64,000 nucleotides of DNA, from contig JAKPTF010000061.1 of the NCBI GenBank assembly GCA_029571225.1, positions 3,051-67,050 of the forward strand. Reading direction: 5' to 3'. Made by a program: the position numbers and the translations under genes. Origin of the DNA: Candidatus Omnitrophota bacterium (GTDB lineage Bacteria > Omnitrophota > Gorgyraeia > Gygaellales > Profunditerraquicolaceae). The notes beneath the pieces were generated by a model. That model was not told where the DNA came from and did not search any database. It was given only the letters and a program-made list of their open reading frames with translations. Shown here piece by piece: positions 26,396-55,822 of this stretch; the stretch's first letter is position 1, and the number at the start of each line of letters is the position of its first letter.

Positions 26396-27130
26396 ATGTT
26401 CCTCTTTATCCGCCTCCTCTTAGCGCATCTCATCGGAGATTTCCCCTTGCAGTTCGATTTTATCTTCAAGCTGAAACTCAAAGGCCTGCGCGGGGTTATC
26501 CCTCACGCGCTGATCATATTCTACTGCGGCATTGCAATGTCCTGGCCGTATCTTCATATGCCGCTCGCATGGGGATTCCTGGCCTTCATCGCCATAACAC
26601 ATCTGATCCAGGACTCATTAAAGATCAATTACGGAAAAGCCAAGCACGGCTTCTGGGCATACGTCATTGACCAGGCAACCCACGCCGCGCTCATCTCTCT
26701 GGTTTTCTTCACGGGCTTGAAAGACCTGCCCGCTCCTGAGCCGTCAAACCCGTTCGTCAGGCTCTATTCCCATGACGGCCTCATCCTGTATCTCATCATC
26801 CTGATCGCCGCGACCTACAACGGGCATTTTCTCATCAGATGCTTCAAAGACTCGTTCGTCAGGAACGCCAATCCCTGTGACGCGTATGAGAAATGGTTCG
26901 GAATGTTCGAACGGCTCGCAATCGTATCGCTTTTTCTCACTCCGCTGCCGCTGTGGTTGATTATCTTGCTCAGCCTTGCGCTGCGGCCGCTGGCCTACGT
27001 ATCTCTCAAAGATCGGCTGTCCCTGCACCGTTGCTTCGTCGCCGTGCCCGACATGGTCCTCAGCTGGATCATCGGCCTGTTAGGCGGCATGATCCTCTAT
27101 CTACTTCAATCCCGTTACCCGGTATATTGA
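26396..27130 (+). CDS. DUF3307-family membrane protein
   Basis: 244 aa, polytopic. N-terminal LLAHLIGDFPLQ motif typical of DUF3307. The 3' end overlaps the convergent cyclase gene by 30 nt. Confidence 0.7.
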   Translation: MFLFIRLLLAHLIGDFPLQFDFIFKLKLKGLRGVIPHALIIFYCGIAMSWPYLHMPLAWGFLAFIAITHLIQDSLKINYGKAKHGFWAYVIDQATHAALISLVFFTGLKDLPAPEPSNPFVRLYSHDGLILYLIILIAATYNGHFLIRCFKDSFVRNANPCDAYEKWFGMFERLAIVSLFLTPLPLWLIILLSLALRPLAYVSLKDRLSLHRCFVAVPDMVLSWIIGLLGGMILYLLQSRYPVY

Positions 27131-29344
27131 TATCGGATTTGTCTTGCCCTTGACCATGATCGGCTCAAGCTTCTCCACAACGACATGGTCCCGGGCCATC
27201 TCGAATGTCGACTCGCTGATGATGATCTCGCCTTTACCCGCAGCGGCGCAGAGCCGCGCGCCAAGGTTGACGTTGTCCCCGATGACCGTATAATCCATAC
27301 GTTCGGCAGAACCCATGTTCCCCACGACCATATCGCCCGTGTTGATCCCGATGCCGATCTGGATCGCGGCCTTTGCGTCCTGCGCCAGGTTCTGGCGCAA
27401 TTCCTTCATTTTTTCCTGGATATCGAGCGCGACACGGATGGCCACAAGCGCGTGGTCCTTTTCATGGCGTTTGCTCGGCGCGCCGAAGAACGCCATGACC
27501 TCGTCGCCCACAAATTTATCAAGCGTTCCGTTATAATGGAATATGACCTTGACCTGCAGCGAGAGCACCTCGTTGAGCATCGCCACCACTTCTTCGGGCT
27601 GGCGTGTCTCTGAAAAAGCGGTAAACCCGCGCACGTCTGAGAACAGGACCGTGAGATGCCTGCGCTCGCCGCCGAGGGTCAGGCGCGAAGGATTATCCAT
27701 CATCTCGGATATGACCTCGTGGGACAGGTAATGAGAGAATGCCCCCTTGATCCAGAGCTTCTCCCGCTCCTCGGTAAAGAACCTGAAGCTGGTGATGGCC
27801 ATAAGGCCGAACACGACGATCCCCAGGGGCCCCACCATATCAAGCCACAGGCCGTTGGAGATGAACAAATAGAAACAAACCCAGAAAAATCCTGCAGCGT
27901 ACACGATTGCCAGGACCAGGCTTTTCCACAACTTCAGCAGAGACACCAGGGCGATCACCAGCGCCGTGACCACCAGCATCAGAACGCGAAGCGCCATGCG
28001 CTGCCTGACGATGAACCGCTCGGTCAGGATCGTATTGATGAAATTCGAATGGGTCCCGACCATGGGATAATTCTCCTGCAGGGGGATCGGCCGCAGGTCG
28101 TGCGTTCCGGTCGCGGTAAGGCCGACGATACAGATCTTGCCGTTCACCAGTGCCTTGAGCCGGGCAGTCAGGTCAGCTTCCATCTTGCGCAGGACCTCTT
28201 CTGCGCCCGAGATGCCGGCGTCCCGGCCGGCAAGTTGACTGCGCACTTCTTCGAGCTGAAGGATCAGATAATACGGGATATGCTTGAATGTTTTGTCCCA
28301 TTTCCCGTGCCAGTTCACGATCATGCATCCCTGGCTGTCAACGGGAATGACGATGTCCTTGCGGCCCGGATGGAACCTGGCTTTCTTAAGCGTGACCCGG
28401 TTTGGGCCGACTTCGACATTTTTGACTTCCAGCCTGTCCAGCAGAGCGGCAATGGTCAACTGTGGCAGGATCTTTCCCTCATAGCGGACAAAAAGCGGAA
28501 CCTTGCGCGTAACGCCGTCGATATCAGGATCGGCGTTGATAAAACCGCTTCCCATCATGCGCCTGGCGTATGCCATGATCGGTACGTTCAAAGAACCGGC
28601 TTCCCTGAAAAACGGCCACGAGCCCGGGATATCAACGGAAAACCTGTTGACGTAGAAATACACCGCCTGGTGATGCACGAAACGCTCCTGGACATACGAT
28701 TCGTCTTCGGCGAATAAAAAGAACCCGCGTTCCCGCTCCAGCCGCTCCAGGCAGGCGTCGAACGATATCTCCGGGTCTTTGCGGATAATATCGCGCACTG
28801 CCTCATCCAGCACCATACGTTTGGCCGCCGGCAGCTTGTCCCGCAAAAGGCCGGCGTCAACGCCGAGGGACTGCGCCGCCTTCTCAACGGAGATCGAGAT
28901 GTCCTTTAAGAGTATTTCCTTGAGCTTTGGGAAAGGGAAACTTTGCGGTTCGTCGAAATAGAACGGAAGATATGTGATGCCGCTGCGGTCTATGGCGTCA
29001 GCGAACGCCTCATCCTCCTGCGGGTTCTCTTTATCCGCTTCGGTGAAAATGACATCCCAGAGGATCTGCCTGGCCCCGCACTCCTTGAGAATCCTGGTCA
29101 ACCTGGCATGGTAGCTTCTCGGCCATGGCCACCTGCCGATCTTTGCGAGGCTCTGGTCGTCGATATCGACGTGAACGACCGGTCCCCGCGCTGGCTGGGC
29201 GCCCTGGAGGGTAAAACGCAAATCCAGCGCTTTTAATTCGAGGATCTCGTAGGGTTTGGAGCTGACAGCGAAGAAAATCGCCACTGCCAGCGACAGCGTG
29301 ATGAAAAGGCTGACTGTCAGTTTCAGGCGGGTCTTCTTATTCAC
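27101..29344 (-). CDS. CHASE2-sensor class III adenylate/guanylate cyclase
   Basis: 747 aa. N-terminal TM. CHASE2 core VVHVDIDDQSLAKIGRWPWPRSYHARLTRILKECGARQILWDVIFTE. Three TMs. Cyclase domain LTVLFSDVRGFTAFSE...KFVGDEVMAFFGAP...GINTGDMVVGNMGS...YTVIGDNVNLGARL. Confidence 0.9.
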   Translation of the reverse strand: MNKKTRLKLTVSLFITLSLAVAIFFAVSSKPYEILELKALDLRFTLQGAQPARGPVVHVDIDDQSLAKIGRWPWPRSYHARLTRILKECGARQILWDVIFTEADKENPQEDEAFADAIDRSGITYLPFYFDEPQSFPFPKLKEILLKDISISVEKAAQSLGVDAGLLRDKLPAAKRMVLDEAVRDIIRKDPEISFDACLERLERERGFFLFAEDESYVQERFVHHQAVYFYVNRFSVDIPGSWPFFREAGSLNVPIMAYARRMMGSGFINADPDIDGVTRKVPLFVRYEGKILPQLTIAALLDRLEVKNVEVGPNRVTLKKARFHPGRKDIVIPVDSQGCMIVNWHGKWDKTFKHIPYYLILQLEEVRSQLAGRDAGISGAEEVLRKMEADLTARLKALVNGKICIVGLTATGTHDLRPIPLQENYPMVGTHSNFINTILTERFIVRQRMALRVLMLVVTALVIALVSLLKLWKSLVLAIVYAAGFFWVCFYLFISNGLWLDMVGPLGIVVFGLMAITSFRFFTEEREKLWIKGAFSHYLSHEVISEMMDNPSRLTLGGERRHLTVLFSDVRGFTAFSETRQPEEVVAMLNEVLSLQVKVIFHYNGTLDKFVGDEVMAFFGAPSKRHEKDHALVAIRVALDIQEKMKELRQNLAQDAKAAIQIGIGINTGDMVVGNMGSAERMDYTVIGDNVNLGARLCAAAGKGEIIISESTFEMARDHVVVEKLEPIMVKGKTNPISIYRVTGLK

Positions 29345-30394: not shown

Positions 30395-30439
30395 CGTCCC
30401 TCCTTGGAATGGATTAAAGAGAACGGTTATACGGTCCTT

Positions 30440-41552: not shown

Positions 41553-41582
41553 ACAACCCTCCTGAAATCTTAGCGACGGTCA

Positions 41583-41978
41583 TTATTTCCCCATTATCTC
41601 GATCAATATCCCGTCCGGATCCTTGATGAAAAAATAGCGCCTGCCGTCGGCGAAGACGCGCAGGTCTGTTGCGAAACGAACTCCGGATTTCTTGAATTTA
41701 TTAAATATTGCTGTGATATTTTTTGTCTCAAGCGAAAAATGTTTGACGCCGAGGGTTCGCAGGTCATCATCAAGGGTCTTCCTATACTGCGGCAGCGGTT
41801 TTCGCTTCTTGAATTCGAATAATTCCAAGGCGATATTGCCCTTCTTGAGCAGAGCGATGGTCATCCCTTTGTCGCGAAACACGTATTTCTTATGCAGTTT
41901 CAATCCGAGATGCGTGCGATAAAAACTTATGGATCGCTGCAAGTGTCCTACGCTAATTCCCACATGTCCAAGTCGCAT
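41583..41978 (-). CDS. VOC/glyoxalase-I-family protein
   Basis: 131 aa. MRLGHVGISVGHLQRSISFYRTHLGLKL...KHFSLET...FIKDPDGILIEI. Confidence 0.8.
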   Translation of the reverse strand: MRLGHVGISVGHLQRSISFYRTHLGLKLHKKYVFRDKGMTIALLKKGNIALELFEFKKRKPLPQYRKTLDDDLRTLGVKHFSLETKNITAIFNKFKKSGVRFATDLRVFADGRRYFFIKDPDGILIEIMGK

Positions 41979-41986
41979 AACAGTTA

Positions 41987-42077
41987 TCGATCACGCAAGG
42001 GCTGTGTCACAAAGCGAGTTGCGCAGCCCGGAGGGCTGCGCCTGTCCGAGCGACTGACACAGCCCTTGCGGGATCGA
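41987..42077. repeat. Nested hairpin element: 16-bp perfect outer stem (23 bp with 1 mismatch) enclosing a 9-bp perfect GC-rich inner hairpin
   Basis: CGCAAGGGCTGTGTCA (41994-42009) pairs with TGACACAGCCCTTGCG (42055-42070). Inner hairpin GCGCAGCCC-gga-GGGCTGCGC at 42021-42041. No adjacent U-tract on either strand. Confidence 0.9.
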
Positions 42078-42085
42078 CCGATGTT

Positions 42086-43738: not shown

Positions 43739-43753
43739 GGTTGACCCCTGTTT

Positions 43754-43975
43754 TTATTTCTGCTGGTTGAATTTACCGACCGCCAGCTTGGGTGGGTTTT
43801 CCGAAAACAAAACGCCGTTGCACGCGGCATTATCGAGCGTGTAGCCGTCGAAGAAAAGATAGATCCGGTCCTTGGGCACTTTCGATATTTCGGAGAATAT
43901 GGTTATATATTTATCGGCGAGGACCTTCTTTTGCTCGTCGGTAAGTTCAAGGGAATGGATGATGATCGCGGGCAT
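43754..43975 (-). CDS. 4-oxalocrotonate-tautomerase-family small protein
   Basis: 73 aa. Begins MP (Pro1), then IIIHSLELTDEQKKVLADKYITIFSEISKVPKDRIYLFF, which matches the tautomerase beta-alpha-beta pattern. Confidence 0.55.
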   Translation of the reverse strand: MPAIIIHSLELTDEQKKVLADKYITIFSEISKVPKDRIYLFFDGYTLDNAACNGVLFSENPPKLAVGKFNQQK

Positions 43976-44019
43976 ATGCGCCTCCGGCGTTTATGAAGCC
44001 AATAAACTGATCGTGGGAC

Positions 44020-44052
44020 ATGCGGGCCGCTGCGAACTGCAGCAGCCCGCAT
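44020..44052. repeat. Intergenic hairpin (8+5 bp stem, no U-tract)
   Basis: ATGCGGGC-c-GCTGC gaact GCAGC-a-GCCCGCAT. Confidence 0.8.
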
Positions 44053-44061
44053 GATACTGTC

Positions 44062-44868
44062 TTAACCGACCTTGATTTTCTTCAGGCCTGCCTTGCCTTC
44101 TTTTGACAGAACGTCAAGGACCTCAACGATCTTCTTTCCGTAGGCAATGGACGATTCGACCGATGTGCCGGTGACAAACGGCCAGTCGAACGCAACGCGC
44201 GGGTTCTCGCGGGTCGCTTTCTCTTCGGCAATGCATGTGCCGTTCGGGCCCACTGCGTCCCTGACGATATGCTCGAGCGGCCAGAGGAATCCGGGCGTAT
44301 GAACATCAGTGCCTTTATTATCGGCAGACGCGCCGTACAGGTCATAGGTAAAGTCCCAGTCCGGGCCGTAGAAATCCCATGACGCAGGATGTGCGGTGAT
44401 CTTTTTCCCGTAAATGACGCTGTTCTTTGTCTTGGGATCGCGGCAATACACGAGCGTTGCCACTGAATAGCACAAAGCGCCGACAAGCTTGTCCTGCGCG
44501 ATCGCGTCAAGAATCAACTTGTGGACGTTGTAGTTATTGCACATATCGATCATGGCGCCAAGCCCGCCGGTCAACACAAGCGCATCGAAGTTCTTCATGT
44601 TCGCGTCTTTGAACTTGATGGGATTGGCCCATTCATTGCCGTCGGTAAGCTCCTTGATCCTCTTGCACACATCCGGCGGATTGGTATTGCATTTGATGAT
44701 CGGATCAAAAAAGTTCGGGTCGCAGCTCACCGCCAACGGCAGGGGTTTCTTCCCGAACCATGTGGTCAGCGTCACGTCGTGGCCTGCTTTCTTGATAATA
44801 TCCCACGGCGCCTGCAGTTCCTCCCCCCATGTGCCGTAGTTAGTCGCACATATCAACACCTTTGCCAT
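44062..44868 (-). CDS. Type-1 glutamine-amidotransferase-like (DJ-1/PfpI superfamily) protein
   Basis: 268 aa. MAKVLICATNYGTWGEE...FDALVLTGGLGAMID...VGALCYSVATL (Cys elbow). Confidence 0.65.
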   Translation of the reverse strand: MAKVLICATNYGTWGEELQAPWDIIKKAGHDVTLTTWFGKKPLPLAVSCDPNFFDPIIKCNTNPPDVCKRIKELTDGNEWANPIKFKDANMKNFDALVLTGGLGAMIDMCNNYNVHKLILDAIAQDKLVGALCYSVATLVYCRDPKTKNSVIYGKKITAHPASWDFYGPDWDFTYDLYGASADNKGTDVHTPGFLWPLEHIVRDAVGPNGTCIAEEKATRENPRVAFDWPFVTGTSVESSIAYGKKIVEVLDVLSKEGKAGLKKIKVG

Positions 44869-44923
44869 TCTTTCCTCCTTGTTTACGCCGCCGCGCCTCT
44901 CTCACGGGCCGGGCGGCCCAGTG

Positions 44924-45292
44924 TTATTTTTTCGCCTTTATCCGCTTTCCCGCATTGCCTCCCCTGGACATCCACGGGAAATCCTTCTTGACCGGGGTGA
45001 ACAGATCGATCGCCTCGGTCTGCCCGACAGCAACGAACTCATGCCACACATTGCCGGGAATAAAATACGCATCGCCTGCCTTCAACAGGGCTTTTTTGCC
45101 GCCGATGTTCATCCTGAACCCGCCCTTGATCACGTATCCGAACTGCTCCTGCTTGTGCTTATGCCATTTCACCACGCTTTTATTCGCCATATCCCAATGC
45201 TGGGCATTCAACTTCTTGCCCTCGCCCAGATACTGGCGGATAACGCCTCCTCCCATGTCGAACTTGTCGAGCTTTTTTCTGAATACGTACAT
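44924..45292 (-). CDS. Cupin-domain protein
   Basis: 122 aa. WHKHKQEQFGYVIKGGFRMNIGGKKALLKAGDAYFIPGNVWHEF (cupin motifs 1 and 2). Confidence 0.75.
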   Translation of the reverse strand: MYVFRKKLDKFDMGGGVIRQYLGEGKKLNAQHWDMANKSVVKWHKHKQEQFGYVIKGGFRMNIGGKKALLKAGDAYFIPGNVWHEFVAVGQTEAIDLFTPVKKDFPWMSRGGNAGKRIKAKK

Positions 45293-45304
45293 CGAACCTC
45301 CTTC

Positions 45305-45595
45305 CTATTTCACTCCTTCGACGCAGAATACATCCGCTGATGCTGCACGCACGCGCAATTGCTTCGCTTGCTTATAATCCGAGGAATTCCACCAATCCCG
45401 CGCCTGCTGCATATCCTGAAATTCAAGAACGATGACTCGTCTGGGCTGCGGATCGCCTTCCCACACTTCCGTTTTGCCGCCGCGCACAAGGGGTTTGCCG
45501 CCATGCGCAAGAATCGTCGGAGCGCCCGCTTTCATATACTTGGCGTACTGTTCCTGATCCTTCACATCGACATTGATGATAACGTATGCTGACAT
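45305..45595 (-). CDS. DUF1330-family protein
   Basis: 96 aa. MSAYVIINVDVKDQEQYAKYMKAGAPTILAHGGKPLVRGG...VIVLEFQDMQQARDWWNSSDYKQ. Confidence 0.75.
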   Translation of the reverse strand: MSAYVIINVDVKDQEQYAKYMKAGAPTILAHGGKPLVRGGKTEVWEGDPQPRRVIVLEFQDMQQARDWWNSSDYKQAKQLRVRAASADVFCVEGVK

Positions 45596-45610
45596 TGACT
45601 TATCCTAACC

Positions 45611-45640
45611 GGATGCCGCGGTCTGTTTCGAGCGGCATCC
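45611..45640. repeat. Intergenic hairpin (9-bp perfect stem, 12-nt loop, no U-tract)
   Basis: GGATGCCGC ggtctgtttcga GCGGCATCC. Confidence 0.8.
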
Positions 45641-45658
45641 GCAGCCCGAGCAGCACGA

Positions 45659-46225
45659 TCAGCTCTTGTCGATCAACTCAATGATCTTCTTCGCGAACAC
45701 GTTGCAATGGCCGCCGCTGCGCGCCGTGACCAGGTCCCCGTCCACAACGACATCCTCGTTCACATAGACCGCGCCCATGTTCCTGGCGTCGCCCAGAAGA
45801 TTATTGTGCACGACGACCTTCCTGCCTTTGACCAATTCGGGCGCAGGAGCGATCAGCCACATGCCGTGGCAGATGATACCCTTAATGATATTCTTTTGAG
45901 CGAACGCCCGCTTCATGAACTCGGTGGCCGGCGGCAGTTTCGTAACGTCTTCGGTATAACGGAGGCGGTCAGCCACCATGCCCGCAGGCACGATGATCGC
46001 GGCAAAACTCTTCAGCTGCGCGTCATCCATGTTCTCGAAGCTTTCATGACACTCCATGGGAATCTGATATTCATGGCCTTTGAATGTAAGCGACGCGCAA
46101 CCCCAGAGCCTCGTTAAAAAATGCACGTCCATGCCTTCTTCGGCAAAACGGAGCTTGTAATACCATATTTCCGGTTCGTAATAGTCCCCCTCTAATAAAA
46201 TCCCGATCTTCGCGCCTTTACGCAT
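45659..46225 (-). CDS. DJ-1/PfpI-family protein
   Basis: 188 aa. AAIIVPAGMVADRLRY...IKGIICHGMWLIAPA (Cys-His elbow). Confidence 0.8.
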   Translation of the reverse strand: MRKGAKIGILLEGDYYEPEIWYYKLRFAEEGMDVHFLTRLWGCASLTFKGHEYQIPMECHESFENMDDAQLKSFAAIIVPAGMVADRLRYTEDVTKLPPATEFMKRAFAQKNIIKGIICHGMWLIAPAPELVKGRKVVVHNNLLGDARNMGAVYVNEDVVVDGDLVTARSGGHCNVFAKKIIELIDKS

Positions 46226-46239
46226 GTGACCTCCGTGAC

Positions 46240-47793
46240 TTATCCCTTGCCTTTATACCGCAGAGCCAGCATCGTGATATCGTCGGATTGCTGCGCGCCC
46301 CGGACAAAATCGAACACGTCCTGGCGGATGTTTTTGACAAGCCCCGGGACATCCTGATCCTTGTGTCCGCTCAAGGCCTCCCGGAGCCTTTTCTCGCCAA
46401 ATTGCTGTTTGTCCGGGTCCATGGCCTCGGTCACGCCGTCTGTATAGAGAAAAATCGTATCACCGGGTTTGAGGACCAGGCGCTCGCTTGCGCATTTGAT
46501 GTTGTCCATGACCCCAACCACGAACCCGCATGCCATTTTCATGAAATTATAGCAGCCCGAAATGTCGCATACGAGCGGAGGATTATGGCCGGCGTTGGTG
46601 AACTCAAGTTCCCCGGTCTCAAGGTCCAGTATGGCGCAGAACACCGTGACAAAAAGGCATGTCTGGTTATCCGGAACAAGAATCGCGTTCACCTGCGAGA
46701 TGACCTCGTCGGTCGAGAAATGCTCCCTGGCCTCGGTCTTAATCAATGTCTTGCTGATCGCCATGAACAACGCGGCAGGCACGCCCTTTCCTGATACGTC
46801 GCCGATGACAATACACAGATGCGTATCATCGACAAAAAAGAAATCGTAAAAATCCCCGCCGACCTCTTTTGCAGGGTCCATCATGGCAAAGATCTCAAAC
46901 TCCTTGCGCTCGGGGAATACCGTCGGCAGCATGCTCGCCTGGATCTCCTGGGCGATGCGCAGTTCGCTTTCGATGCGCTCGCGCGCCGCGGTCTCGGCCT
47001 TGAGGTTCTCGATGAACCGCTTGATGGAGAGCTGTATGAGGTCGATCGCCATGGCAGGGTCTTTGCCGAAGAAATTTATCACCTCGTCCTTTCCCATGGT
47101 ATAGACCTCTACGTCCTCCTCGCAGACAGCCGAGGCCGTCCTCTCCTTAAAAGGCGAGAAGATACCCATTTCTCCGATCACATCTCCCTGTGCAACGATC
47201 TTATCTATCTCCGGAAGACGGATCGAGCCTTTGGCGATATAGAACATGCGGTCGGCCTTATCGCCTGCTTTGAACAAACGGTCCCCTTTCCTGTATGTCT
47301 CCAGTTTCATGAAAGAGATCGGCCACCGGCACGATATCCCCGCTTTCTGGGCTGATGCCTGTACCGCGGAATGCAGGTCCCTGGGGCTGCAGGTATTGTA
47401 TTTGACAAGCGTCAGGACGTTCTTGTTCCCGTCGCGCTTATAGGTGACCTCGTCCATGATCTTCTTCATCATGAATATGCCCAGCCCCCCGATATTGCGT
47501 TCCTCGATCGGCTTGTGGATATCCGGCTCCGGCAATGACAGCGGGTCAAAGGGGATGCCGGAGTCGATCAGCGTGATCTCAAGATACGAATTGCTGTTCA
47601 GATACGTGATCTCCAGGTCCCCCTGTCTGCCGGGATAGGCGTAATTGATCACGTTGACAAGGGCCTCTTCGCAGGCGAGCTGAATCTTATCGATGTGTTC
47701 CTTGACAAAACCCTGGCGGGCCGCGCCTTCCCTGATAAAGGCGAACATTTTTTCAAGGTTTTCCAGCTTGGCAGGCAGGACTAAACGTTCCAT
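46240..47793 (-). CDS. Tri-domain partner-switching enzyme: RsbW/SpoIIAB-type kinase + cNMP-binding domain + SpoIIE/PP2C phosphatase
   Basis: 517 aa. aa 1-133: KIQLACEEALVNVINYAY...DSGIPFDP...GGLGIFMMKKIMDEV. aa ~150-262: FKAGDKADRMFYIAKG...GDVIGEMGIF...RTASAVC. aa ~275-517: ELRIAQEIQASMLP...EVGGDFYDFF...IGDVSGKGVPAALFMA...TDGVTEA. Confidence 0.85.
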   Translation of the reverse strand: MERLVLPAKLENLEKMFAFIREGAARQGFVKEHIDKIQLACEEALVNVINYAYPGRQGDLEITYLNSNSYLEITLIDSGIPFDPLSLPEPDIHKPIEERNIGGLGIFMMKKIMDEVTYKRDGNKNVLTLVKYNTCSPRDLHSAVQASAQKAGISCRWPISFMKLETYRKGDRLFKAGDKADRMFYIAKGSIRLPEIDKIVAQGDVIGEMGIFSPFKERTASAVCEEDVEVYTMGKDEVINFFGKDPAMAIDLIQLSIKRFIENLKAETAARERIESELRIAQEIQASMLPTVFPERKEFEIFAMMDPAKEVGGDFYDFFFVDDTHLCIVIGDVSGKGVPAALFMAISKTLIKTEAREHFSTDEVISQVNAILVPDNQTCLFVTVFCAILDLETGELEFTNAGHNPPLVCDISGCYNFMKMACGFVVGVMDNIKCASERLVLKPGDTIFLYTDGVTEAMDPDKQQFGEKRLREALSGHKDQDVPGLVKNIRQDVFDFVRGAQQSDDITMLALRYKGKG

Positions 47794-47810: not shown

Positions 47811-48131
47811 CTATTTCGTATACGTATCGACCACGGCCATGAAGTTATCAAGGCCGGACATCTTGATGACGTTGAGAACGGCGTCGCGCGGGGCGACAAG
47901 CAGGATCTTCGCGTCCGCGCCGATCTTCTGTTTGGCAAAGATGATAACCCGTAATCCGGCGCTTGAGATATACTCCAGGTCTCGAGCCAGGAATACGAGT
48001 TCCGCTATCTTCTGCCCGATAAATTTCTTCAGTTCTGTCTGAAGGCCTTCTGCATTGGTCGCATCCAGCCGGCCGCACAACTCGACCTTGAGTATCTCAT
48101 TGGCACAGGTACAGGTATATTTCGATTCCAT
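47811..48131 (-). CDS. STAS-domain anti-sigma-factor antagonist (SpoIIAA/RsbV-like)
   Basis: 106 aa. GRLDATNAEGLQTELKKFI...LVFLARDLEYISSAGLRVIIFA...LLVAPRDAVLNVIKMSGLDNF. Confidence 0.85.
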   Translation of the reverse strand: MESKYTCTCANEILKVELCGRLDATNAEGLQTELKKFIGQKIAELVFLARDLEYISSAGLRVIIFAKQKIGADAKILLVAPRDAVLNVIKMSGLDNFMAVVDTYTK

Positions 48132-48165: not shown

Positions 48166-50301
48166 TTATTTGGATTCCTTGCCGACCAGGATGACGACTG
48201 ACCGGGGGCCGACTAAAAATTCGTTCTGGTTCTCGATCCTGACTTCTTTGCCAGGCTCCCAGATATCGAAGGGAGGCTGGGCATCCGTATTGGCGAACAC
48301 ATACCACTGCATATGATGGTTGAGCTTCGGAAGCTCAAAACCGTGCATTTCCCAGTGCATATTCATCGCCACATATATGGAATTATCGTCGACCGTTCCG
48401 CCTTTGGCATGCATGCCGCAAAGCAAAAACGCCAGCATCCTGCTCTCTGCAGACCAATCGACGTTCCATGCCTTCTGACCGTGCCAGGTGATATCCGCAA
48501 AGCCGGATCCCATGTAATCGCGGTTCTTGAAATGGCCGCTCGAGCGCAAAACAGGATGCGCCTTGCGGAACGCGATCATTTTTTTAAAGAAATTGAAAAG
48601 CTCTCTATTCTTATCCAGCTGCGACCAGTCGATCCAGGATATCTCATTGTCCTGGCAATATGCGTTGTTATTGCCCCATTGGGTATTTGCCATTTCGTCG
48701 CCCGCAAGGATCATGGGCGTTCCCTGGCTGACCAGAAGCATCGCGACCGCGTTCTTCATCTGCTTCATGCGCAGCTTGTTGACCGCCGGATCAGTCGATT
48801 CGCCTTCCCAGCCGCAGTTCCAGCTGTAATTGTCATTCGAGCCGTCGGAATTGTTTTCGCCGTTGGCCTCATTGTGCTTGCCGTTATACGAAACCATGTC
48901 GTAAAGCGTGAAACCGTCGTGCGCGGTTATGAAATTGATAGACGCAGTTGCGCCCCTGCCTTCCCAGGAATACAGGTCAGGGGAACCCTGGAGCCTCTGC
49001 GCCATACCGCCAAGGCTTCCGGGCTCGCCTTTGAGGAATTTGCGCAGATCATCACGGTATTTCCCGTTCCATTCAGCCCAGCGGCCCCAGGCGGGGAAAC
49101 TTCCGACCTGGTAGAGCCCGCCCGCGTCCCACGCCTCGGCAATAAGCTTGCATTTGCCCAGGATCGGGTCGAACGCGAGAGTTTCCAGAAGCGGCGGCGA
49201 GTGCATGGGAGCGCCGTTCTGGTCGCGGCCGAGAATGGAGGCAAGATCAAACCTGAACCCGTCCACGTGATAATCCGCTGCCCAGTAGCGTAAACAATCG
49301 AGGATCATGTTGCGCACAATAGGATTATTGCAGTTGAGCGTATTGCCGCAGCCTGAAAAATTGAAATAATACCCGTCGGGCGTAAGCAAATAATAGGTTT
49401 TATTGTCAATGCCCCTGTAGGAAATATACGGCCCCTTTTCATTCCCTTCGGCGGTATGGTTGAACACGACGTCCAGGATGACCTCAATGCCGTTCTTATG
49501 AAGCTCCTTGATCAGGGTTTTGCACTCGTCAACCTGCATGCCAAACTTTCCTGTTGCTGCAAAGCCTGCCTTGGGAGCGAAAAACCCGACGTTCGAATAT
49601 CCCCAGTAATTCATGAGCATTTTGCCTGTTGTGGGCGACACGCGGGAGTTCTCGAACTCGTCGAATTCGTGTATGGGCATCAGCTCCACGCAGCTGACGC
49701 CGAGTTCCTTCAAATAAGGTATTTTTTCCTTGATGCCCGCGAACGTGCCGGGATGTTTGACGCCCGATGATGGATGCCTGGTAAAACCCCGCACGTGCAT
49801 CTCGTAAATAACCAGGTCCTCGATCGGAGTCTCGAGCGGATGGTCGCTCTCCCAGTCAAAATCGTCGAAACAGATGCGGGCGCGGTGCTGGTATATGTCG
49901 TTCCAGTCGGGAGTCTTGCCCCACACGTCCCTGCCGCCGATGGCCTTTGCATACGGGTCCATGAGGACTTTTGTCTTATCAAACCGGTGGCCCTGGCGCG
50001 GATCGAACGGCCCGTCCATATAAAAGCCATATTCAAGGTTCTCGTAATCGAGGTCGAAGACGACCATGGTGAACACGTTGCCGATGCGGAATTCGTCCTT
50101 GAACGGTATCACGCAGAAGGGTTTTTGTTCATGTTTGTTGAAAAGCACGAGTTTACACGATGTCGCATAACGGGAATATATCGAGAAATTGACGCCGCCG
50201 GGCACAATGCTTGCGCCAAACGGCAGGGGCTTACCAACCCGCAGATGGTATTTGCCGTCCTCGCTCACATGTGTGGGATGCAGGTCAACGCGCAGCATCA
50301 T
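48166..50301 (-). CDS. glgX: Glycogen debranching enzyme GlgX (isoamylase, GH13)
   Basis: 711 aa. CBM48-like N-terminus, GH13 motifs DVVFNHTAEG, GFRFDLASILGRD, LIAEAWD, FITAHDGF. ATGA overlap with the upstream STAS stop at 50298-50301. Confidence 0.9.
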   Translation of the reverse strand: MMLRVDLHPTHVSEDGKYHLRVGKPLPFGASIVPGGVNFSIYSRYATSCKLVLFNKHEQKPFCVIPFKDEFRIGNVFTMVVFDLDYENLEYGFYMDGPFDPRQGHRFDKTKVLMDPYAKAIGGRDVWGKTPDWNDIYQHRARICFDDFDWESDHPLETPIEDLVIYEMHVRGFTRHPSSGVKHPGTFAGIKEKIPYLKELGVSCVELMPIHEFDEFENSRVSPTTGKMLMNYWGYSNVGFFAPKAGFAATGKFGMQVDECKTLIKELHKNGIEVILDVVFNHTAEGNEKGPYISYRGIDNKTYYLLTPDGYYFNFSGCGNTLNCNNPIVRNMILDCLRYWAADYHVDGFRFDLASILGRDQNGAPMHSPPLLETLAFDPILGKCKLIAEAWDAGGLYQVGSFPAWGRWAEWNGKYRDDLRKFLKGEPGSLGGMAQRLQGSPDLYSWEGRGATASINFITAHDGFTLYDMVSYNGKHNEANGENNSDGSNDNYSWNCGWEGESTDPAVNKLRMKQMKNAVAMLLVSQGTPMILAGDEMANTQWGNNNAYCQDNEISWIDWSQLDKNRELFNFFKKMIAFRKAHPVLRSSGHFKNRDYMGSGFADITWHGQKAWNVDWSAESRMLAFLLCGMHAKGGTVDDNSIYVAMNMHWEMHGFELPKLNHHMQWYVFANTDAQPPFDIWEPGKEVRIENQNEFLVGPRSVVILVGKESK

Positions 50302-50645
50302 GCGCCCCCTTTACGGACCGCCGCAACAGCGGCACTGATGTCGGGAAAAGATTTGAAGAAATTAGAAAAACCTGTCATCTCCATGACATCCTTGATCTCG
50401 TCGCATACGCCGCTCAAGACGAGTATCCCGCCCTGGCTGTTTAATTGTTTTGCAGCCATGAGCAGAAGCCTCAGGCCTGCGCTTGAAACATACCCGCAAC
50501 CCTTCAGATCGAGCACAAGCGACTTCGTGTCCGCTGATAAAAGCGGCATTATCTTTTCCTGCGCTTCGTTGACCGTATTGCCGTCTAGATTGCCGGACAA
50601 GGCGACAACCGTCACGCCGTCCTGTTTGCTCGTCTGGATGTCCAT
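50298..50645 (-). CDS. STAS-domain anti-sigma-factor antagonist
   Basis: 115 aa. VVALSGNLDGNTVNEAQEKI...LVLDLKGCGYVSSAGLRLLLMA...LVLSGVCDEIKDVMEMTGFSNFF. Confidence 0.85.
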   Translation of the reverse strand: MDIQTSKQDGVTVVALSGNLDGNTVNEAQEKIMPLLSADTKSLVLDLKGCGYVSSAGLRLLLMAAKQLNSQGGILVLSGVCDEIKDVMEMTGFSNFFKSFPDISAAVAAVRKGGA

Positions 50646-50655
50646 GCGGTCTCCT

Positions 50656-52476
50656 TTACGCTGTCGGAACGATTCTGACCTTGATCTTCGGCCGGTAATT
50701 GACGTTGGGGATGCTCACGGTCAGATTCTTGGCATCAAAATTCTTCCACGGGTTGCCGTCCACCCACACATCGGAGATGCGAATGCTGCCCGGAGGCAAA
50801 ATATCCGGCTCGACCCGCAGGACATCACCCGGAAATCCCTGCGGCATTGGCTTGAAATAAAGGTCAAGCGGCTGTTTCGCATAGAGAAGGTTCTGATATA
50901 TCTGTGCCAGATAGCACAGTTCGATTGAATGGTAACAGGCCATTGAATGGCTGCCCTTCAGCCGTTCGGTGCCCAGCAAAAACGGCAGACCGTTGTTGAG
51001 CACGTTGAAATACACCGCGCCGTCGTCGTGATCGAGATAGAACGCATTATAGAATGCCGCTGATTCGCGCGCCAGGCGCAGGTATTCGGAATCCTTGAGC
51101 ACACCATACATAATCTCGTAGGCGAGTATCGCCTGTTCCTGCTGCCACCATGCCTTGCGGTCATGCCACACATGGCGGTAACATTGTTCGCCCGGAGCAA
51201 GTTCCCGCTCCATGACGTCATACCAGCCGCCGCGCTGAACGTCCATGCCGACGGTCGGCATGATCCTGGCGATCTTCCTGGAAAAATCGACATATTTAGA
51301 CTTTGGTACAAGGCTATTGATGCGTGTCAGGTTCCATGCAATCTTGAGGTTATGGCCGATAACACCCCTGTTCTGCTGCCATCCCCATGTCTTGTCATGG
51401 CTCCAATCCTCGTGGAATTTCTCCTGCACGAACGGGCTGTGCTCGTAATCCTGGAAATGATCCGTGATACAGTCTGCTGTATACTCCAGGAAATCTTTAT
51501 ATTTAGGGTCTCCGGTCGCAAGCCACAGGTTGATCAGGTATGCAGGCGCATGGTCGCCGACCGAGTTCCAATTCTTGCGCGCCCGGTTGCGTCCCAAAGA
51601 TTCAGCGCGCGGGTCGAGCTTGATCGGGTCGATATGCGAGAAATACCCGCCTTTTTCCTTATCGAGGAAGAACCGGTCGAAGAGATCGATCGTCATTTTG
51701 ATATCTTTCATGATCGCAGGGTCCCCGGAAATGCGGTATGTCTGCGTCGGGCCTGCGAGCGCGTATATCTGCTCGTACGCCGGGATCGCGTCATAATCGT
51801 CGCCAAACTCGGACGCGAACACTTTGTGTTCCCGGCCGTGCTTGATGTCTATGCCGTGATACCAATAGACCACATTCTCATCCGTATCGTAGAACCTCAT
51901 ATGGTCGCGCAAATACTGGACGCCTTTTTCAGCCGTATTGAGAAACCGGTCCTCGCCGGTCAAAAGGAACGCCGATGCCATTCCATAGATCATACGGGAA
52001 ATGGTATCGGTCTCCTGCCGGTGATCGGGTTTACGCTCTCCGGTCAAGGAGATATTGGTGCGGTAATTCGTATAGTCGATGGTATCAGGCGAGCCGAATT
52101 CTGCTTTGATGTAAAAATCCGCAATGTTGGAGGCCTGTTTGACCCACCAATCAGCCTCTTCAAAGCGGTATTTGCCAATCCCCTCTCCGGGGAAAATAAG
52201 CACTTTGGCGTCGAAATCATACCGGTCTTTTTCAGGATAAAATATGCCCAGGACGAACAGATATTGTCCCGGGACCATCAAACTGTCGATCTTTCCCGTG
52301 TAATCGCACCATCCCTCGCCCAGATTACGCGGGCCCTTGGCGTACGCGGTGCCGGTCATGCGGCCAGAATATTCTCTGCCATCGGTGGTTTTGAGGGTAA
52401 ATGATTTTTTAGCACGGTCATAACTTATTACGTATCCTGCGATTGTATCAGAGAACTCAAAGTTCACCCTGTTCAT
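50656..52476 (-). CDS. AGE-family (N-acylglucosamine 2-epimerase / cellobiose-2-epimerase-like, six-hairpin) protein with N-terminal extra domain
   Basis: ORF 50656..52623 trimmed to MNRVNFEF (ATG 52476-52474), which has SD AAGGGGTGG directly upstream. The longer form would read through a terminator hairpin. ISRMIYGMASAFLLTGEDRFLNTAEKGVQYLRDH..., WNSVGDHAPAYL and GHNLKIAWNL are AGE-like. Confidence 0.6.
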   Translation of the reverse strand: MNRVNFEFSDTIAGYVISYDRAKKSFTLKTTDGREYSGRMTGTAYAKGPRNLGEGWCDYTGKIDSLMVPGQYLFVLGIFYPEKDRYDFDAKVLIFPGEGIGKYRFEEADWWVKQASNIADFYIKAEFGSPDTIDYTNYRTNISLTGERKPDHRQETDTISRMIYGMASAFLLTGEDRFLNTAEKGVQYLRDHMRFYDTDENVVYWYHGIDIKHGREHKVFASEFGDDYDAIPAYEQIYALAGPTQTYRISGDPAIMKDIKMTIDLFDRFFLDKEKGGYFSHIDPIKLDPRAESLGRNRARKNWNSVGDHAPAYLINLWLATGDPKYKDFLEYTADCITDHFQDYEHSPFVQEKFHEDWSHDKTWGWQQNRGVIGHNLKIAWNLTRINSLVPKSKYVDFSRKIARIMPTVGMDVQRGGWYDVMERELAPGEQCYRHVWHDRKAWWQQEQAILAYEIMYGVLKDSEYLRLARESAAFYNAFYLDHDDGAVYFNVLNNGLPFLLGTERLKGSHSMACYHSIELCYLAQIYQNLLYAKQPLDLYFKPMPQGFPGDVLRVEPDILPPGSIRISDVWVDGNPWKNFDAKNLTVSIPNVNYRPKIKVRIVPTA

Positions 52477-52533
52477 GTCCACCCCTTGGTTTGTGAGATT
52501 GGCAACCGGATTGAATATCGCCTGGTGCAGCTT

Positions 52534-52566
52534 AAAAAAAAAGCCAAGGCACGAATGCCTTAGCTT
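52534..52566 (-). terminator. Rho-independent terminator after the signalling operon
   Basis: Minus strand: GCTAAGGCA-TTCG-TGCCTTGGC (one A.C mismatch) followed by T9. Confidence 0.8.
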
Positions 52567-52664
52567 GATGAAACTACTTTCTTCGGATAAACGTTTTTGC
52601 GGCCGACCCCATAAAAACTCCATCCGGATAACCTATGATTCTCTAACTGTAGAATAACGAAGTT

Positions 52665-54996: not shown

Positions 54997-55424
54997 GGAT
55001 TACGATGAAGCGATTTGGACATCCTGACGCCGCTGCCGTTGTCGTAAAATTCAACTTTGTCCATAAGCTTGCGCATGAGGTACACGCCGCGGCCGGAAGG
55101 CTGGTTCACTTTTTCGCCGCGCGTGGGATCGGGCAGGACGCGGAAATCAAAACCGTCGCCTTCGTCATGGACATCCATGACGATCTTTTGCGCGTCAACG
55201 CCGATGTGCACGGTGACGAAGCAACGCTCATCCATGCGGTTGCCGTGACGCATCGAATTAACCACGGCTTCCTCGAGTGCGAGCTTGATCTTAAAAACGT
55301 CGTCCTTCGAACCGACGAAAGGAAGCAGATCCTGCGAAACCCTATCGATGAACGGATTGACCGTCTTCAGGTCGGTCTTAAGCTTTTCATGCAGGCGATA
55401 CAACAGGGCCGTGTCGTTCATCAT
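54993..55424 (-). CDS. RsbW/SpoIIAB-type anti-sigma serine kinase (HATPase_c_2)
   Basis: 143 aa. KIKLALEEAVVNSMRHGN...VMDVHDEGDGFD...GRGVYLMRKLMDKVEF. ATGA overlaps at both ends. Confidence 0.85.
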   Translation of the reverse strand: MMNDTALLYRLHEKLKTDLKTVNPFIDRVSQDLLPFVGSKDDVFKIKLALEEAVVNSMRHGNRMDERCFVTVHIGVDAQKIVMDVHDEGDGFDFRVLPDPTRGEKVNQPSGRGVYLMRKLMDKVEFYDNGSGVRMSKSLHRNP

Positions 55425-55813: not shown

Positions 55814-55822
55814 GCGGCCTCC

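What the first reader, a model, noticed from the sequence alone, without database searches (positions are those of the whole stretch)
46240..47793. Single-chain RsbW-type kinase + cNMP-binding domain + PP2C phosphatase: possible cyclic-nucleotide-gated partner switch
Seen: one 517-aa ORF carries an RsbW/SpoIIAB-type HATPase (aa 1-133), a CAP-type cNMP-binding fold (aa ~150-262, with GEMGIF...RTAS) and a SpoIIE/PP2C domain (aa ~275-517). A STAS gene with the phosphorylatable ISSAGL motif ends 17 nt upstream. Established: in partner-switching modules the kinase and phosphatase act antagonistically on one STAS protein. Multidomain fusions are known (M. tuberculosis Rv1364c: PAS-PP2C-kinase-STAS). 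Inference: placing both opposing activities on a single chain, separated by a cyclic-nucleotide sensor, suggests cAMP/cGMP binding flips the net activity. The CHASE2 class III cyclase at 27101-29344 is a plausible signal source. I am not aware of a characterised kinase-cNMP-phosphatase order.
Basis: partly seen in the sequence, partly recalled or inferred. Interest (0 to 1): 0.7.

Follow-up and report, generated by a model that had tools for sequence, protein, structure and literature searches.

The report
cAMP-sensing phosphatase fused to its kinase
One gene of an uncultured Omnitrophota bacterium joins a protein kinase, a cyclic-nucleotide sensor and a protein phosphatase that probably act on a small neighbouring switch protein; it is an uncharacterised variant of a known bacterial signalling design, not a new kind of system.

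Summary
ORF 46240-47793 (-), 517 aa, carries HATPase_c_2, cNMP_binding and SpoIIE domains, all above Pfam cut-offs. A STAS gene with the YISSAGL motif ends 17 nt upstream. All kinase, nucleotide-pocket and phosphatase motifs are invariant in 27 diverse homologues and conserved across all 71 (47-100% identity).

A kinase-sensor-phosphatase order is already characterised in Vibrio fischeri SypE, with a receiver domain as sensor.

The comparative evidence suggests that the cNMP domain is the phosphatase's own sensor:
- Close orthologues in the same gene neighbourhood encode the kinase as a separate gene.
- Other relatives carry the kinase at the C-terminus, or carry REC or Cache-HAMP instead.
- The kinase-to-cNMP spacer is variable and predicted disordered.
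- The cNMP-to-PP2C helix has a fixed length and is the best-conserved segment.

The likely mechanism is a classical partner switch. A cNMP-controlled RsbU-type phosphatase opposes a tethered RsbW-type kinase.

The operon (epimerase-like, STAS, GlgX, STAS, kinase/phosphatase) has the same gene content, in the order implied by locus-tag numbers, as the Synechocystis icfG carbon-regulation cluster.

The three-domain order is rare, at about 3-4 clusters among 1.84 billion representatives, and I found no characterisation of it. I rate it a new variant of a known kind, of moderate interest.

The parts
47395..47793 (-). RsbW/SpoIIAB-type serine kinase domain (aa 1-133)
   Evidence: Pfam HATPase_c_2, E 2.4e-27. 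It aligns to B. subtilis RsbW (6m36) and SpoIIAB (1l0o), with the N-box E43/N47, D77-x-G79 and G102-G-L-G105. These residues are invariant in 27 diverse homologues. The Foldseek match to RsbW 6m37 has TMt 0.86.
47332..47394 (-). Flexible tether between kinase and sensor (aa 134-154), probably a former intergenic region
   Evidence: AF2 pLDDT is below 50 for aa 135-154. Spacer length varies from 12 to 43 aa in 75 fused homologues, and conservation is 0.25. In split orthologue L005 the kinase gene stops here and the next gene continues in another frame.
47059..47331 (-). CAP/CRP-type cyclic-nucleotide-binding beta-barrel (aa 155-245)
   Evidence: Pfam cNMP_binding, E 1.6e-14. The best solved relative is the CRP-family regulator GlxR, whose entry 4cyd is the cAMP-bound form. 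It has an 8-residue deletion in the beta4-beta5 hairpin relative to GlxR.
47128..47175 (-). Phosphate-binding cassette G207-E-M-G ... R218-T-A-S-A222
   Evidence: It aligns to the GlxR cassette GELSIFDPG-PRTSSAV. G207, E208, M209, G210, S213, P214, R218 and A222 are invariant across the family.
46924..47058 (-). C-helix continuing as one long signalling helix into the phosphatase (aa 246-290)
   Evidence: AF2 predicts one continuous helix over aa 246-288. It is the most conserved segment of the protein, at 0.81. The spacer length takes only the values 21, 24 or 27 aa. It is homologous to the linker plus PPM of P. aeruginosa RssB, entries 3eq2/3f7a.
46243..46923 (-). SpoIIE/RsbU-type PP2C (PPM) phosphatase (aa 291-517)
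   Evidence: Pfam SpoIIE, E 1.4e-49. The acidic motifs GGD314FYD, GD332VSGKG, TD452G and SD504D505IT are invariant. Foldseek matches RssB, Rv1364c, SiaA and SpoIIE at E 1e-13 to 1e-16.
47811..48131 (-). STAS#1, the predicted phospho-substrate (106 aa); predicted acceptor Ser57 (codon 47961-47963)
   Evidence: Pfam STAS and NCBIfam anti-sigma factor antagonist, above cut-off. Ser57 aligns with Ser59 of TM1442 (D58-S59-A60-G61) and with the DSSG motif of SpoIIAA. A STAS gene lies directly upstream of the fused or split gene in 10 of the 11 such loci and carries Y[IV]SSAGLR in all 7 checked. The exceptions are L009, which holds only about 200 nt of upstream sequence, and the permuted form in L089, where the STAS gene lies about 3 kb upstream.
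50298..50645 (-). STAS#2 (115 aa), a possible second substrate; overlaps the glgX start by 4 nt
   Evidence: Pfam STAS, E 1e-20. It has the motif YVSSAGLR. The position is conserved in L001 and L005.
48166..50301 (-). Isoamylase / glycogen debranching enzyme (GlgX-like) lying between the two STAS genes
   Evidence: Pfam CBM_48, Alpha-amylase and ISOA1-3_C. The position is conserved in L001, L002 and L005.
50656..52479 (-). GlcNAc-2-epimerase-family protein, first gene of the operon (the ORF is open to 52623, but the real start is probably Met49)
   Evidence: Pfam GlcNAc_2-epim. Orthologues are 606-607 aa. A terminator-like hairpin lies at 52541-52566.
45659..46225 (-). DJ-1/PfpI gene 14 nt downstream, probably co-transcribed
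   Evidence: Pfam DJ-1_PfpI. The position is conserved in L001 and L005. No terminator-like site lies between it and the fusion gene.
27101..29344 (-). CHASE2 class III cyclase, predicted adenylate cyclase; a possible but unlinked signal source
   Evidence: Pfam CHASE2 and Guanylate_cyc. The best solved match is P. aeruginosa CyaB 3r5g, E 3e-44. It has Lys in DKFVGD where the chain 2w01 has Glu (DEFMGD); I recall 2w01 as the guanylate cyclase Cya2.

Best explanation
The gene encodes a cyclic-nucleotide-regulated RsbU-type phosphatase (cNMP domain, signalling helix, PP2C) that has become fused to its cognate RsbW-type serine kinase.

Proposed mechanism:
1. The kinase domain phosphorylates Ser57 of the adjacent STAS protein, and possibly also the second STAS upstream of glgX. 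This is inferred from motifs and adjacency.
2. The PP2C domain removes that phosphate.
3. cNMP, probably cAMP, binds the CAP-like pocket. It changes the C-helix, which runs without a break into the PP2C as a conserved linker of fixed length.
4. By analogy with CAP and with the coiled-coil linkers of RsbU and RssB, this would control dimerisation and the switch helices of the phosphatase, and so its activity. This step is inferred.
5. The kinase is attached only by a variable, disordered tether. It is probably constitutive or substrate-limited. Fusion would secure 1:1 stoichiometry and proximity rather than create a new gating mechanism.

Net STAS phosphorylation would therefore follow the cNMP level. 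The sign of the regulation and the downstream target are not known. The target could be a sigma factor bound by the kinase domain, or proteins bound by the STAS proteins. The conserved operon suggests an output in glycogen or carbon metabolism, as for the Synechocystis icfG cluster.
For: - All three domains are above Pfam cut-offs.
- The catalytic and ligand motifs are invariant in 27 diverse homologues and conserved across all 71 at 47-100% identity. They align to RsbW/SpoIIAB, GlxR/CAP and RssB/Rv1364c.
- STAS with Y[IV]SSAGLR lies directly upstream of the fused or split gene in 10 of the 11 such loci, in two clades; L009 holds only about 200 nt of upstream sequence.
- Split orthologues in the same synteny have a separate 133-139 aa kinase gene. 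It is 58% identical to our kinase domain, against 27% for the paralogous free kinase in this window.
- The cNMP-PP2C core occurs alone and with other partners: the kinase at the C-terminus, REC, CHASE5-HAMP or dCache-HAMP at the N-terminus.
- The tether measures 12-43 aa, has conservation 0.25 and pLDDT below 50. The cNMP-to-PP2C helix measures only 21, 24 or 27 aa, has conservation 0.81 and is modelled as a single helix over aa 246-288.
- Regulation of bacterial PPM phosphatases through a helical linker is an established general mechanism (PMC12143880).
- The Synechocystis icfG cluster has the same gene content. There Slr1861 phosphorylates Slr1856 and Slr1859, and IcfG dephosphorylates Slr1856 (PMC12329169 and PMC8670252).
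Against: - There is no biochemical evidence for any step.
- SypE, the only characterised protein with this order, appears to use its central sensor to decide between both activities. Reciprocal gating therefore cannot be excluded for the fused forms.
- The AF2 inter-domain geometry is unreliable (pTM 0.51).
- The heptad signal in the linker is not clean. Power at period 3.5 is high, but it is also high at period 2.
- No sigma factor or other output was identified in the ORFs scanned.
- Ligand identity is not determined.
- The NJ tree that interleaves fused and split forms has very short internal branches and no support values.
Confidence: 0.6

Rival explanations
1. True bifunctional switch, as the first reader proposed and as in SypE. 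The central cNMP domain reciprocally gates both enzymes within one chain. Ligand binding would switch the kinase off and the phosphatase on, or the reverse.
For: SypE has the same order (kinase, sensor, PP2C) and acts on a STAS protein. Fused forms are numerous: at least 73 clusters at 90% identity, with one clade entirely fused. This suggests that fusion is selectively maintained.
Against: The kinase is a separate gene in close orthologues. It sits at the opposite end in P0122 and P0123. The kinase-to-sensor spacer is variable, unconserved and predicted disordered. That is not what a conformational relay would be expected to look like.
Confidence: 0.2
2. RsbS/RsbT/RsbU-like two-tier cascade. 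The N-terminal GHKL domain is an RsbT-like regulator of the phosphatase in cis and is held in check by STAS#1 (RsbS-like). The phosphatase acts on another STAS protein, for example STAS#2.
For: The gene order STAS, kinase, phosphatase is the same as rsbS-rsbT-rsbU (my knowledge of the B. subtilis sigB operon). The operon has two STAS genes. In Synechocystis, IcfG dephosphorylates only one of the two STAS proteins.
Against: The kinase domain's best curated matches are RsbW and SpoIIAB; no RsbT match appeared. The RsbU N-terminal four-helix domain that RsbT binds is absent, with a cNMP domain in its place. The distant clade has only one STAS next to the fusion.
Confidence: 0.1
3. The CAP-like domain no longer senses cAMP or cGMP. 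It binds another small ligand or serves only as a dimerisation module, as several CRP/FNR-family domains do.
For: CRP/FNR-family domains with non-nucleotide ligands exist (my knowledge). The domain has an 8-residue deletion in the beta4-beta5 hairpin. No cyclase is genomically linked.
Against: The diagnostic cassette residues Gly-Glu ... Arg-Thr-Ala are present and are invariant or nearly so across the family. A predicted adenylate cyclase lies in the same 64 kb window.
Confidence: 0.1

Closest known systems
Vibrio fischeri SypE / SypA
   Same: The domain order is the same on one chain: an N-terminal RsbW-like serine kinase, a central sensor domain and a C-terminal PP2C phosphatase. It acts on a single-domain STAS protein at a conserved serine, Ser56 in SypA (PMC10120452).
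   Different: The central sensor is a phospho-accepting receiver (REC) domain, not a cNMP-binding domain. The input is a phosphorelay, not a second messenger. SypE lies in a polysaccharide (syp) locus. Sequence orthology to SypE was not tested.
Synechocystis sp. PCC 6803 icfG cluster (slr1855-slr1861)
   Same: The operon has the same gene content, in the order implied by the consecutive locus-tag numbers: a GlcNAc-2-epimerase-family protein, STAS, isoamylase GlgX, STAS, then the PP2C phosphatase and RsbW-like kinase. The kinase phosphorylates the STAS proteins, and IcfG dephosphorylates one of them. The cluster is implicated in glucose and inorganic-carbon regulation (PMC12329169 and PMC8670252).
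   Different: In Synechocystis the phosphatase and kinase are separate genes in the order PP2C then kinase. Here the order is kinase then PP2C, fused. I could not establish the sensor part of IcfG. Orthology was inferred from gene content in the literature, not from sequence comparison.
HsbR (P. aeruginosa), CrsR (S. oneidensis), Rv1364c (M. tuberculosis)
   Same: A single chain carries a sensor, a PP2C phosphatase and an RsbW-like kinase / anti-sigma domain, all acting on a STAS partner. In HsbR and CrsR the fused kinase domain still binds a sigma factor, RpoS. Rv1364c is a structural match (3ke6).
   Different: The order is sensor, PP2C, kinase, with REC or PAS as the sensor. That order is common: 12 X-PP2C-kinase fusions appeared among 80 genome loci. 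It is also used by the cNMP variants P0122 and P0123.
RsbU / RsbP / RssB-type PPM phosphatases regulated through a helical linker
   Same: An alpha-helical linker lies between an N-terminal sensor domain and the PPM domain. The best sequence and fold match is P. aeruginosa RssB, including its linker. The general mechanism is described in PMC12143880.
   Different: The sensor domains discussed there are the RsbU N-domain, REC, PAS, GAF and HAMP. The phrase 'cyclic nucleotide' does not occur in that paper.
CAP/CRP and GlxR cAMP receptor proteins
   Same: It has the beta-barrel with the cassette GE.G...R[TS]A, followed by a long C-helix.
   Different: The output is a PP2C phosphatase instead of a helix-turn-helix DNA-binding domain. 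The beta4-beta5 hairpin is shorter.

Membership tests
Partner-switching module (RsbV/RsbW/RsbU type) | Single-domain STAS protein with the conserved phosphorylatable serine | tested here: met
   STAS#1 matches Pfam and NCBIfam above cut-off. Ser57 aligns with Ser59 of TM1442 and with the DSSG motif of SpoIIAA. The motif is conserved in all 7 partner STAS proteins checked and in the 4 other STAS proteins aligned with them.
Partner-switching module (RsbV/RsbW/RsbU type) | GHKL serine kinase with intact N, G1 and G2 boxes | tested here: met
   E43/N47, D77xG79 and G102GLG105 are aligned to RsbW 6m36 and SpoIIAB 1l0o and are invariant in the family.
Partner-switching module (RsbV/RsbW/RsbU type) | PPM/SpoIIE phosphatase with the metal-binding aspartates | tested here: met
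   D314, D332, D452 and D504/D505 lie in the four canonical motifs and are invariant. The assignment of these motifs to metal binding rests on my knowledge of SpoIIE and RsbU.
Partner-switching module (RsbV/RsbW/RsbU type) | A target (sigma factor or other protein) bound alternately by the kinase or the STAS protein | tested here: inconclusive
   No sigma factor was found among the ORFs scanned in the window. An ECF sigma gene lies near the fusion in the distant clade, but behind a convergent PrsW gene. Most of the window and the rest of the genome were not scanned.
Partner-switching module (RsbV/RsbW/RsbU type) | Demonstrated phosphorylation and dephosphorylation of the STAS protein | not testable with these tools
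   This needs biochemistry.
SypE-type tripartite regulator | N-terminal RsbW-like kinase and C-terminal PP2C on one chain, with an adjacent STAS substrate | tested here: met
SypE-type tripartite regulator | Central receiver (REC) domain as the sensor | tested here: not met
   The central domain is cNMP_binding; there is no Response_reg match. The protein therefore works like SypE but is not a member.
HsbR/CrsR/Rv1364c-type fusion | Order sensor, PP2C, kinase | tested here: not met
   The order here is kinase, cNMP, PP2C. The permuted relatives P0122 and P0123 do have that order.
CAP/PKA-type cyclic-nucleotide-binding domain | Phosphate-binding cassette with Gly-Glu and Arg-Thr/Ser-Ala | tested here: met
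   G207-E208 ... R218-T219-A220 align to the GlxR cassette and are conserved family-wide.
CAP/PKA-type cyclic-nucleotide-binding domain | Actual binding of cAMP or cGMP, and the specificity | not testable with these tools
   This needs ITC or a similar method. The nearby cyclase is predicted to be an adenylate cyclase, which is only circumstantial.
Linker-regulated PPM phosphatases (RsbU/RssB type) | Alpha-helical linker directly N-terminal to the PPM domain | tested here: met
   AF2 models a helix over aa 246-288. Query aa 269-511 align to RssB chain residues 147-389. Foldseek matches 3f7a and 3eq2 over 287-292 columns. The linker has fixed length and the highest conservation in the protein.
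Linker-regulated PPM phosphatases (RsbU/RssB type) | Dimerisation through crossing linkers that controls activity | not testable with these tools
   Only single chains can be modelled here. The heptad analysis was inconclusive.
icfG-type carbon-regulation cluster | Operon with an epimerase-family gene, STAS, GlgX, STAS, PP2C and an RsbW-like kinase | tested here: met
   The window's gene order comes and is conserved in L001 and L005. The Synechocystis cluster content comes from the literature.
icfG-type carbon-regulation cluster | Sequence orthology of the components to Slr1855-Slr1861 | not tested
Shi et al. 1999 is not held.

The most novel reading that the evidence does not exclude
In Omnitrophota, cAMP sets the phosphorylation state of two STAS proteins through this kinase/phosphatase. 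On this reading the STAS proteins act directly on the enzymes encoded between and beside them, the GlgX debranching enzyme and the epimerase-family protein, rather than on a sigma factor. That would be a bacterial pathway from cAMP through protein phosphorylation to glycogen, analogous in logic to the eukaryotic cAMP/PKA control of glycogen breakdown. It would also share ancestry with the cyanobacterial icfG cluster.
Probability: 0.1. Interest if true: 0.8.

Novelty: new variant of a known kind. Interest (0 to 1): 0.45.

Why it matters
Partner-switching modules are among the most widespread bacterial signalling devices. Their known inputs are stressosomes, phosphorelays and PAS, GAF or HAMP sensors.

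A cyclic-nucleotide input would connect cAMP signalling directly to serine phosphorylation of STAS proteins. In the held literature I found no characterised bacterial example of that link. It would also add the CAP-type domain to the set of sensors that drive PPM phosphatases through a helical linker.

The natural fused, split and permuted versions are a ready-made experiment on what covalent fusion of opposing enzymes contributes.

The shared operon layout with the cyanobacterial icfG cluster suggests an old link between this switch and glycogen or carbon metabolism, and that link is still poorly understood.

Tried and rejected
1. The genome-contig scan with the family alignment used patterns from the PP2C and cNMP motifs. 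It returned mostly unrelated SpoIIE phosphatases. Only L009 was a fused three-domain gene, and L010 and L011 were split forms. It gave little taxonomic resolution. Home-made domain HMMs were needed to sort the architectures.
2. I first read the hits that 'matched residues 1-517 in about 1.2 kb' as kinase-PP2C fusions without a sensor. The HMM scan showed 12 of them (of 88 loci) to be X-PP2C-kinase fusions, and in the other such hits the kinase-like match is a separate ORF.
3. Shi et al. 1999 on the icfG cluster is not held. The architecture of IcfG and sequence orthology to it could not be checked.
4. Literature searches for a characterised cNMP-RsbU or cNMP partner switch found nothing relevant. 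One apparent hit matched 'cAMP' only inside the name 'Campbell'. A myxobacterial survey mentions PP2C proteins with a C-terminal cNMP domain, which is a different arrangement and a different PP2C subfamily.
5. The heptad periodicity of the linker was inconclusive.
6. The NJ tree of fused against split forms has short internal branches and no support values. I use it only to say that both states occur among close relatives, not to count fusion or fission events. Some two-domain database entries are truncated at contig ends, for example P0039 and P0065.
7. The idea that the split forms are frameshift artefacts was rejected. There are about 45 independent clusters of consistent length and three loci with different junctions, including L011, where another gene lies between the kinase and the cNMP-PP2C gene.
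8. The promoter scan was no better than shuffled sequence.
Full report
**Observation**

The ORF at 46240..47793 on the minus strand is real: 517 aa with an ATG start. Pfam places three domains on it, all above the curated cut-offs:
- HATPase_c_2 at aa 6-131 (E 2.4e-27)
- cNMP_binding at aa 165-243 (E 1.6e-14)
- SpoIIE at aa 322-513 (E 1.4e-49)

NCBIfam's nearest named families are RsbW, SpoIIAB, CRP, RssB, SiaA and SpoIIE, all below equivalog cut-offs. A 106-aa STAS gene (47811..48131) ends 17 nt upstream and carries YISSAGL. The identical protein is already public as 'SpoIIE family protein phosphatase [Candidatus Omnitrophota bacterium]'.

**Are the three domains competent?**

I aligned 71 full-length homologues at 47-100% identity, and a diverse subset of 27. 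The key residues are invariant in the subset and conserved across all 71:
- Kinase: N-box (E42/E43, N47), D77-x-G79 and G102-G-L-G105.
- Nucleotide pocket: G207-E-M-G210 and R218-T-A-S-A222.
- Phosphatase: GGD314FYD, GD332VSGKG, TD452G and SD504D505IT.

The kinase boxes align with those of B. subtilis RsbW (6m36) and SpoIIAB (1l0o). The pocket aligns with the cassette GELSIFDPG-PRTSSAV of the CRP-family regulator GlxR (cAMP-bound in entry 4cyd). There is an 8-residue deletion in the beta4-beta5 hairpin. The linker plus phosphatase aligns best with P. aeruginosa RssB and with M. tuberculosis Rv1364c.

STAS#1 Ser57 aligns with Ser59 of TM1442 (D58-S59-A60-G61) and with the DSSG motif of SpoIIAA; that these serines are the phospho-acceptors is my recollection.

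**How common is the architecture?**

Among the 120 best clusters at 90% identity, about 73 have kinase-cNMP-PP2C and about 45 have cNMP-PP2C only. I then searched 1.84 billion representatives at 50% identity with the kinase+cNMP half as query. Only P0027, P0062, P0147 and one fragment cover both domains in one stretch. Only 27 proteins reach E 1e-30.

The junction is therefore rare: a few clusters, in Omnitrophota and in a second clade that includes an Acidobacteriota MAG. I found no paper that characterises it.

**What the relatives show**

1. *Split orthologues.* Locus L005 has the same gene order as the window: epimerase-family gene, STAS, GlgX, STAS, then DJ-1, cupin and the rest. There the kinase is a separate 133-aa gene 62 nt upstream of a 365-aa cNMP-PP2C gene.
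   - The kinase ends '...NILTMVKS*' and the next gene continues in another frame.
   - L010 and L011 are also split. In L011 another PP2C gene lies between the two.
   - The free kinases of L005 and L010 are 58% identical to our kinase domain and that of L011 48%. The paralogous free kinase in this same window is 27% identical.
2. *A mobile core.* The cNMP-PP2C pair is the constant unit. It occurs alone (P0134), with the kinase at the C-terminus (P0122 from Lentisphaerae, and P0123), with REC (P0198), and with CHASE5-HAMP (P0199) or dCache-HAMP (P0219) at the N-terminus.
3. *Two very different linkers.*
   - The kinase-to-cNMP spacer varies from 12 to 43 aa. It has the lowest conservation in the protein (0.25). 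In the AlphaFold model (mean pLDDT 82.4, pTM 0.51) it is the only stretch below pLDDT 50.
   - The cNMP-to-PP2C spacer takes only the lengths 21, 24 or 27 aa. It is modelled as one helix over aa 246-288 and is the best-conserved segment (0.81).

Together these results indicate that the cNMP domain is the phosphatase's own N-terminal sensor. The kinase is a cognate partner that has been tethered to it. In some lineages it has been tethered at the other end, or left separate.

**Mechanism**

Shown from sequence:
- a competent RsbW-type kinase, a CAP-type pocket and an RsbU/SpoIIE-type phosphatase;
- a STAS partner with the acceptor serine directly upstream of the fused or split gene in 10 of the 11 such loci;
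- L009 holds only about 200 nt of upstream sequence, and in the permuted L089 the STAS gene lies about 3 kb upstream.

Inferred:
- The kinase phosphorylates STAS Ser57 and the PP2C reverses this.
- cNMP binding changes the C-helix. In CAP that helix forms the dimer coiled coil (my knowledge). Here it continues into the PPM domain.
- This fits the general mechanism described for RsbU, RssB and related phosphatases. There a sensor orders crossing helical linkers that dimerise and activate the PPM domains (PMC12143880). That paper does not mention cyclic-nucleotide domains.

Not known: the sign of the regulation, the ligand (cAMP or cGMP) and the output.

The CHASE2 cyclase at 27101-29344 is most similar to P. 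aeruginosa CyaB. It has Lys in DKFVGD where the chain 2w01, which I recall as the guanylate cyclase Cya2, has Glu, so it is predicted to make cAMP. It lies 17 kb away, and no cyclase gene lies within 5-8 kb of the gene in the 9 homologous loci with called-gene tables. The link is therefore circumstantial.

**Context**

Gene spacing suggests one operon on the minus strand:
- epimerase-family gene; the ORF is open from 52623, but the start is probably Met49 at 52479
- 10 nt gap
- STAS#2
- 4 nt overlap
- GlgX
- 34 nt gap
- STAS#1
- 17 nt gap
- the fusion gene
- 14 nt gap
- DJ-1/PfpI, followed by further genes

A strong terminator-like hairpin at 52541-52566 separates this operon from an upstream, independent partner-switch operon (FecR, STAS#3, RsbW-like kinase, CHASE2-SpoIIE). 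The arrangement is conserved in Omnitrophota relatives at about 69% identity. It is absent from the distant clade, where only STAS plus the fusion gene is conserved, next to a PrsW protease and an ECF sigma factor.

The gene content matches the Synechocystis icfG cluster: Slr1855 epimerase-family, Slr1856 STAS, Slr1857 GlgX, Slr1859 STAS, Slr1860 IcfG PP2C and Slr1861 kinase. The order is inferred from the consecutive locus-tag numbers. In that cluster the kinase phosphorylates the STAS proteins and IcfG dephosphorylates Slr1856. The kinase is also an anti-SigC factor, and the cluster is implicated in glucose and inorganic-carbon regulation (PMC12329169 and PMC8670252). This comparison rests on the literature. 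I could not compare the sequences.

**Comparison with known systems**

- *SypE.* The closest functional analogue is V. fischeri SypE: N-terminal serine kinase, central REC, C-terminal PP2C, acting on STAS SypA Ser56 (PMC10120452). A characterised example of the order kinase, sensor, phosphatase therefore exists. Our protein fails the SypE membership test on the sensor domain.
- *HsbR, CrsR and Rv1364c.* These place both activities on one chain in the order sensor, PP2C, kinase. In HsbR and CrsR the fused kinase domain still binds RpoS. Fusion therefore does not exclude an anti-sigma role here.
- *X-PP2C-kinase fusions.* These are common; 12 appeared among 80 genome loci.

**Verdict**

This is a real, intact and conserved gene. 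It is an uncharacterised variant of a known design: a partner switch whose phosphatase carries a cyclic-nucleotide sensor and whose kinase is fused on by a flexible tether.

The hypothesis that the sensor flips both activities is possible by analogy with SypE. The split and permuted relatives and the nature of the two linkers argue against it.

I rate it 'new variant of a known kind', with interest 0.45. The most novel reading that is still open is a route from cAMP through STAS phosphorylation to glycogen enzymes. That would be much more interesting, but at present it rests only on conserved gene order.

Noticed in passing
window 53128-55813 (-): A second, complete and independent partner-switch operon lies directly upstream: STAS#3 (55421-55813), a free RsbW-like kinase (54993-55424) and a CHASE2-SpoIIE membrane phosphatase (53128-54996). 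A FecR-domain gene (55823-56809) and a multi-PAS histidine kinase (56863-59232) precede it.
   Followed up: partly
window 59895-61805 (-): A third SpoIIE-type phosphatase, with a dCache-HAMP sensor. The 64 kb window thus holds three PP2C phosphatases with three different sensors (cNMP, CHASE2, dCache-HAMP), three STAS genes and two RsbW-type kinases. No sigma factor was found among the ORFs scanned.
   Followed up: no
window 27101-31297 (-) and 53128-56809 (-): Both CHASE2 proteins, the cyclase and the phosphatase, lie downstream of a FecR-domain gene (30440-31297 and 55823-56809). For the cyclase, a beta-barrel porin-like gene (29381-30394) sits in between. This is a recurring FecR plus CHASE2 pairing.
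   Followed up: no
window 52479-52623 and 52541-52566 (-): The epimerase-family ORF is 655 aa as listed, but its orthologues are 606-607 aa. A strong terminator-like hairpin (11-bp stem followed by T7) sits inside its first 27 codons. The real start is probably Met49 (nt 52479), and the hairpin probably ends the upstream CHASE2-PP2C operon.
   Followed up: partly
window 24058-25761 (-), next to 17825-23977 (-): A ShlB/FhaC-type two-partner-secretion transporter appears split into two ORFs: POTRA plus the N-part at 24793-25761 and the C-part at 24058-24708. It lies beside a giant 2050-aa ORF. It may be a disrupted gene or an assembly frameshift.
   Followed up: no
window 39570-46225 (-); L001 and L005: A conserved run lies downstream of the fusion gene: three DJ-1/PfpI-family genes (in L001; only two were confirmed in this window), DUF1330, a cupin, a TPP-dependent enzyme, a glyoxalase and an Lcl_C-repeat protein. 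It is syntenic in Omnitrophota relatives. This may be a reactive-carbonyl or glyoxal detoxification set co-transcribed with the switch.
   Followed up: no
L003, L006, L007, L008 (distant clade): In the clade at about 50% identity, the STAS plus fusion pair is always followed by a convergent PrsW-family protease gene, then an ECF sigma factor with a 257-aa to 975-aa downstream gene. This is a conserved block of unknown meaning.
   Followed up: no
cNMP-to-PP2C linker, family-wide: The spacer between the cNMP barrel and the PP2C domain comes only in lengths 21, 24 or 27 aa, in steps of exactly three residues. This holds in both fused and split forms. The meaning of the three-residue quantum for helix register is unexplained.
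   Followed up: partly
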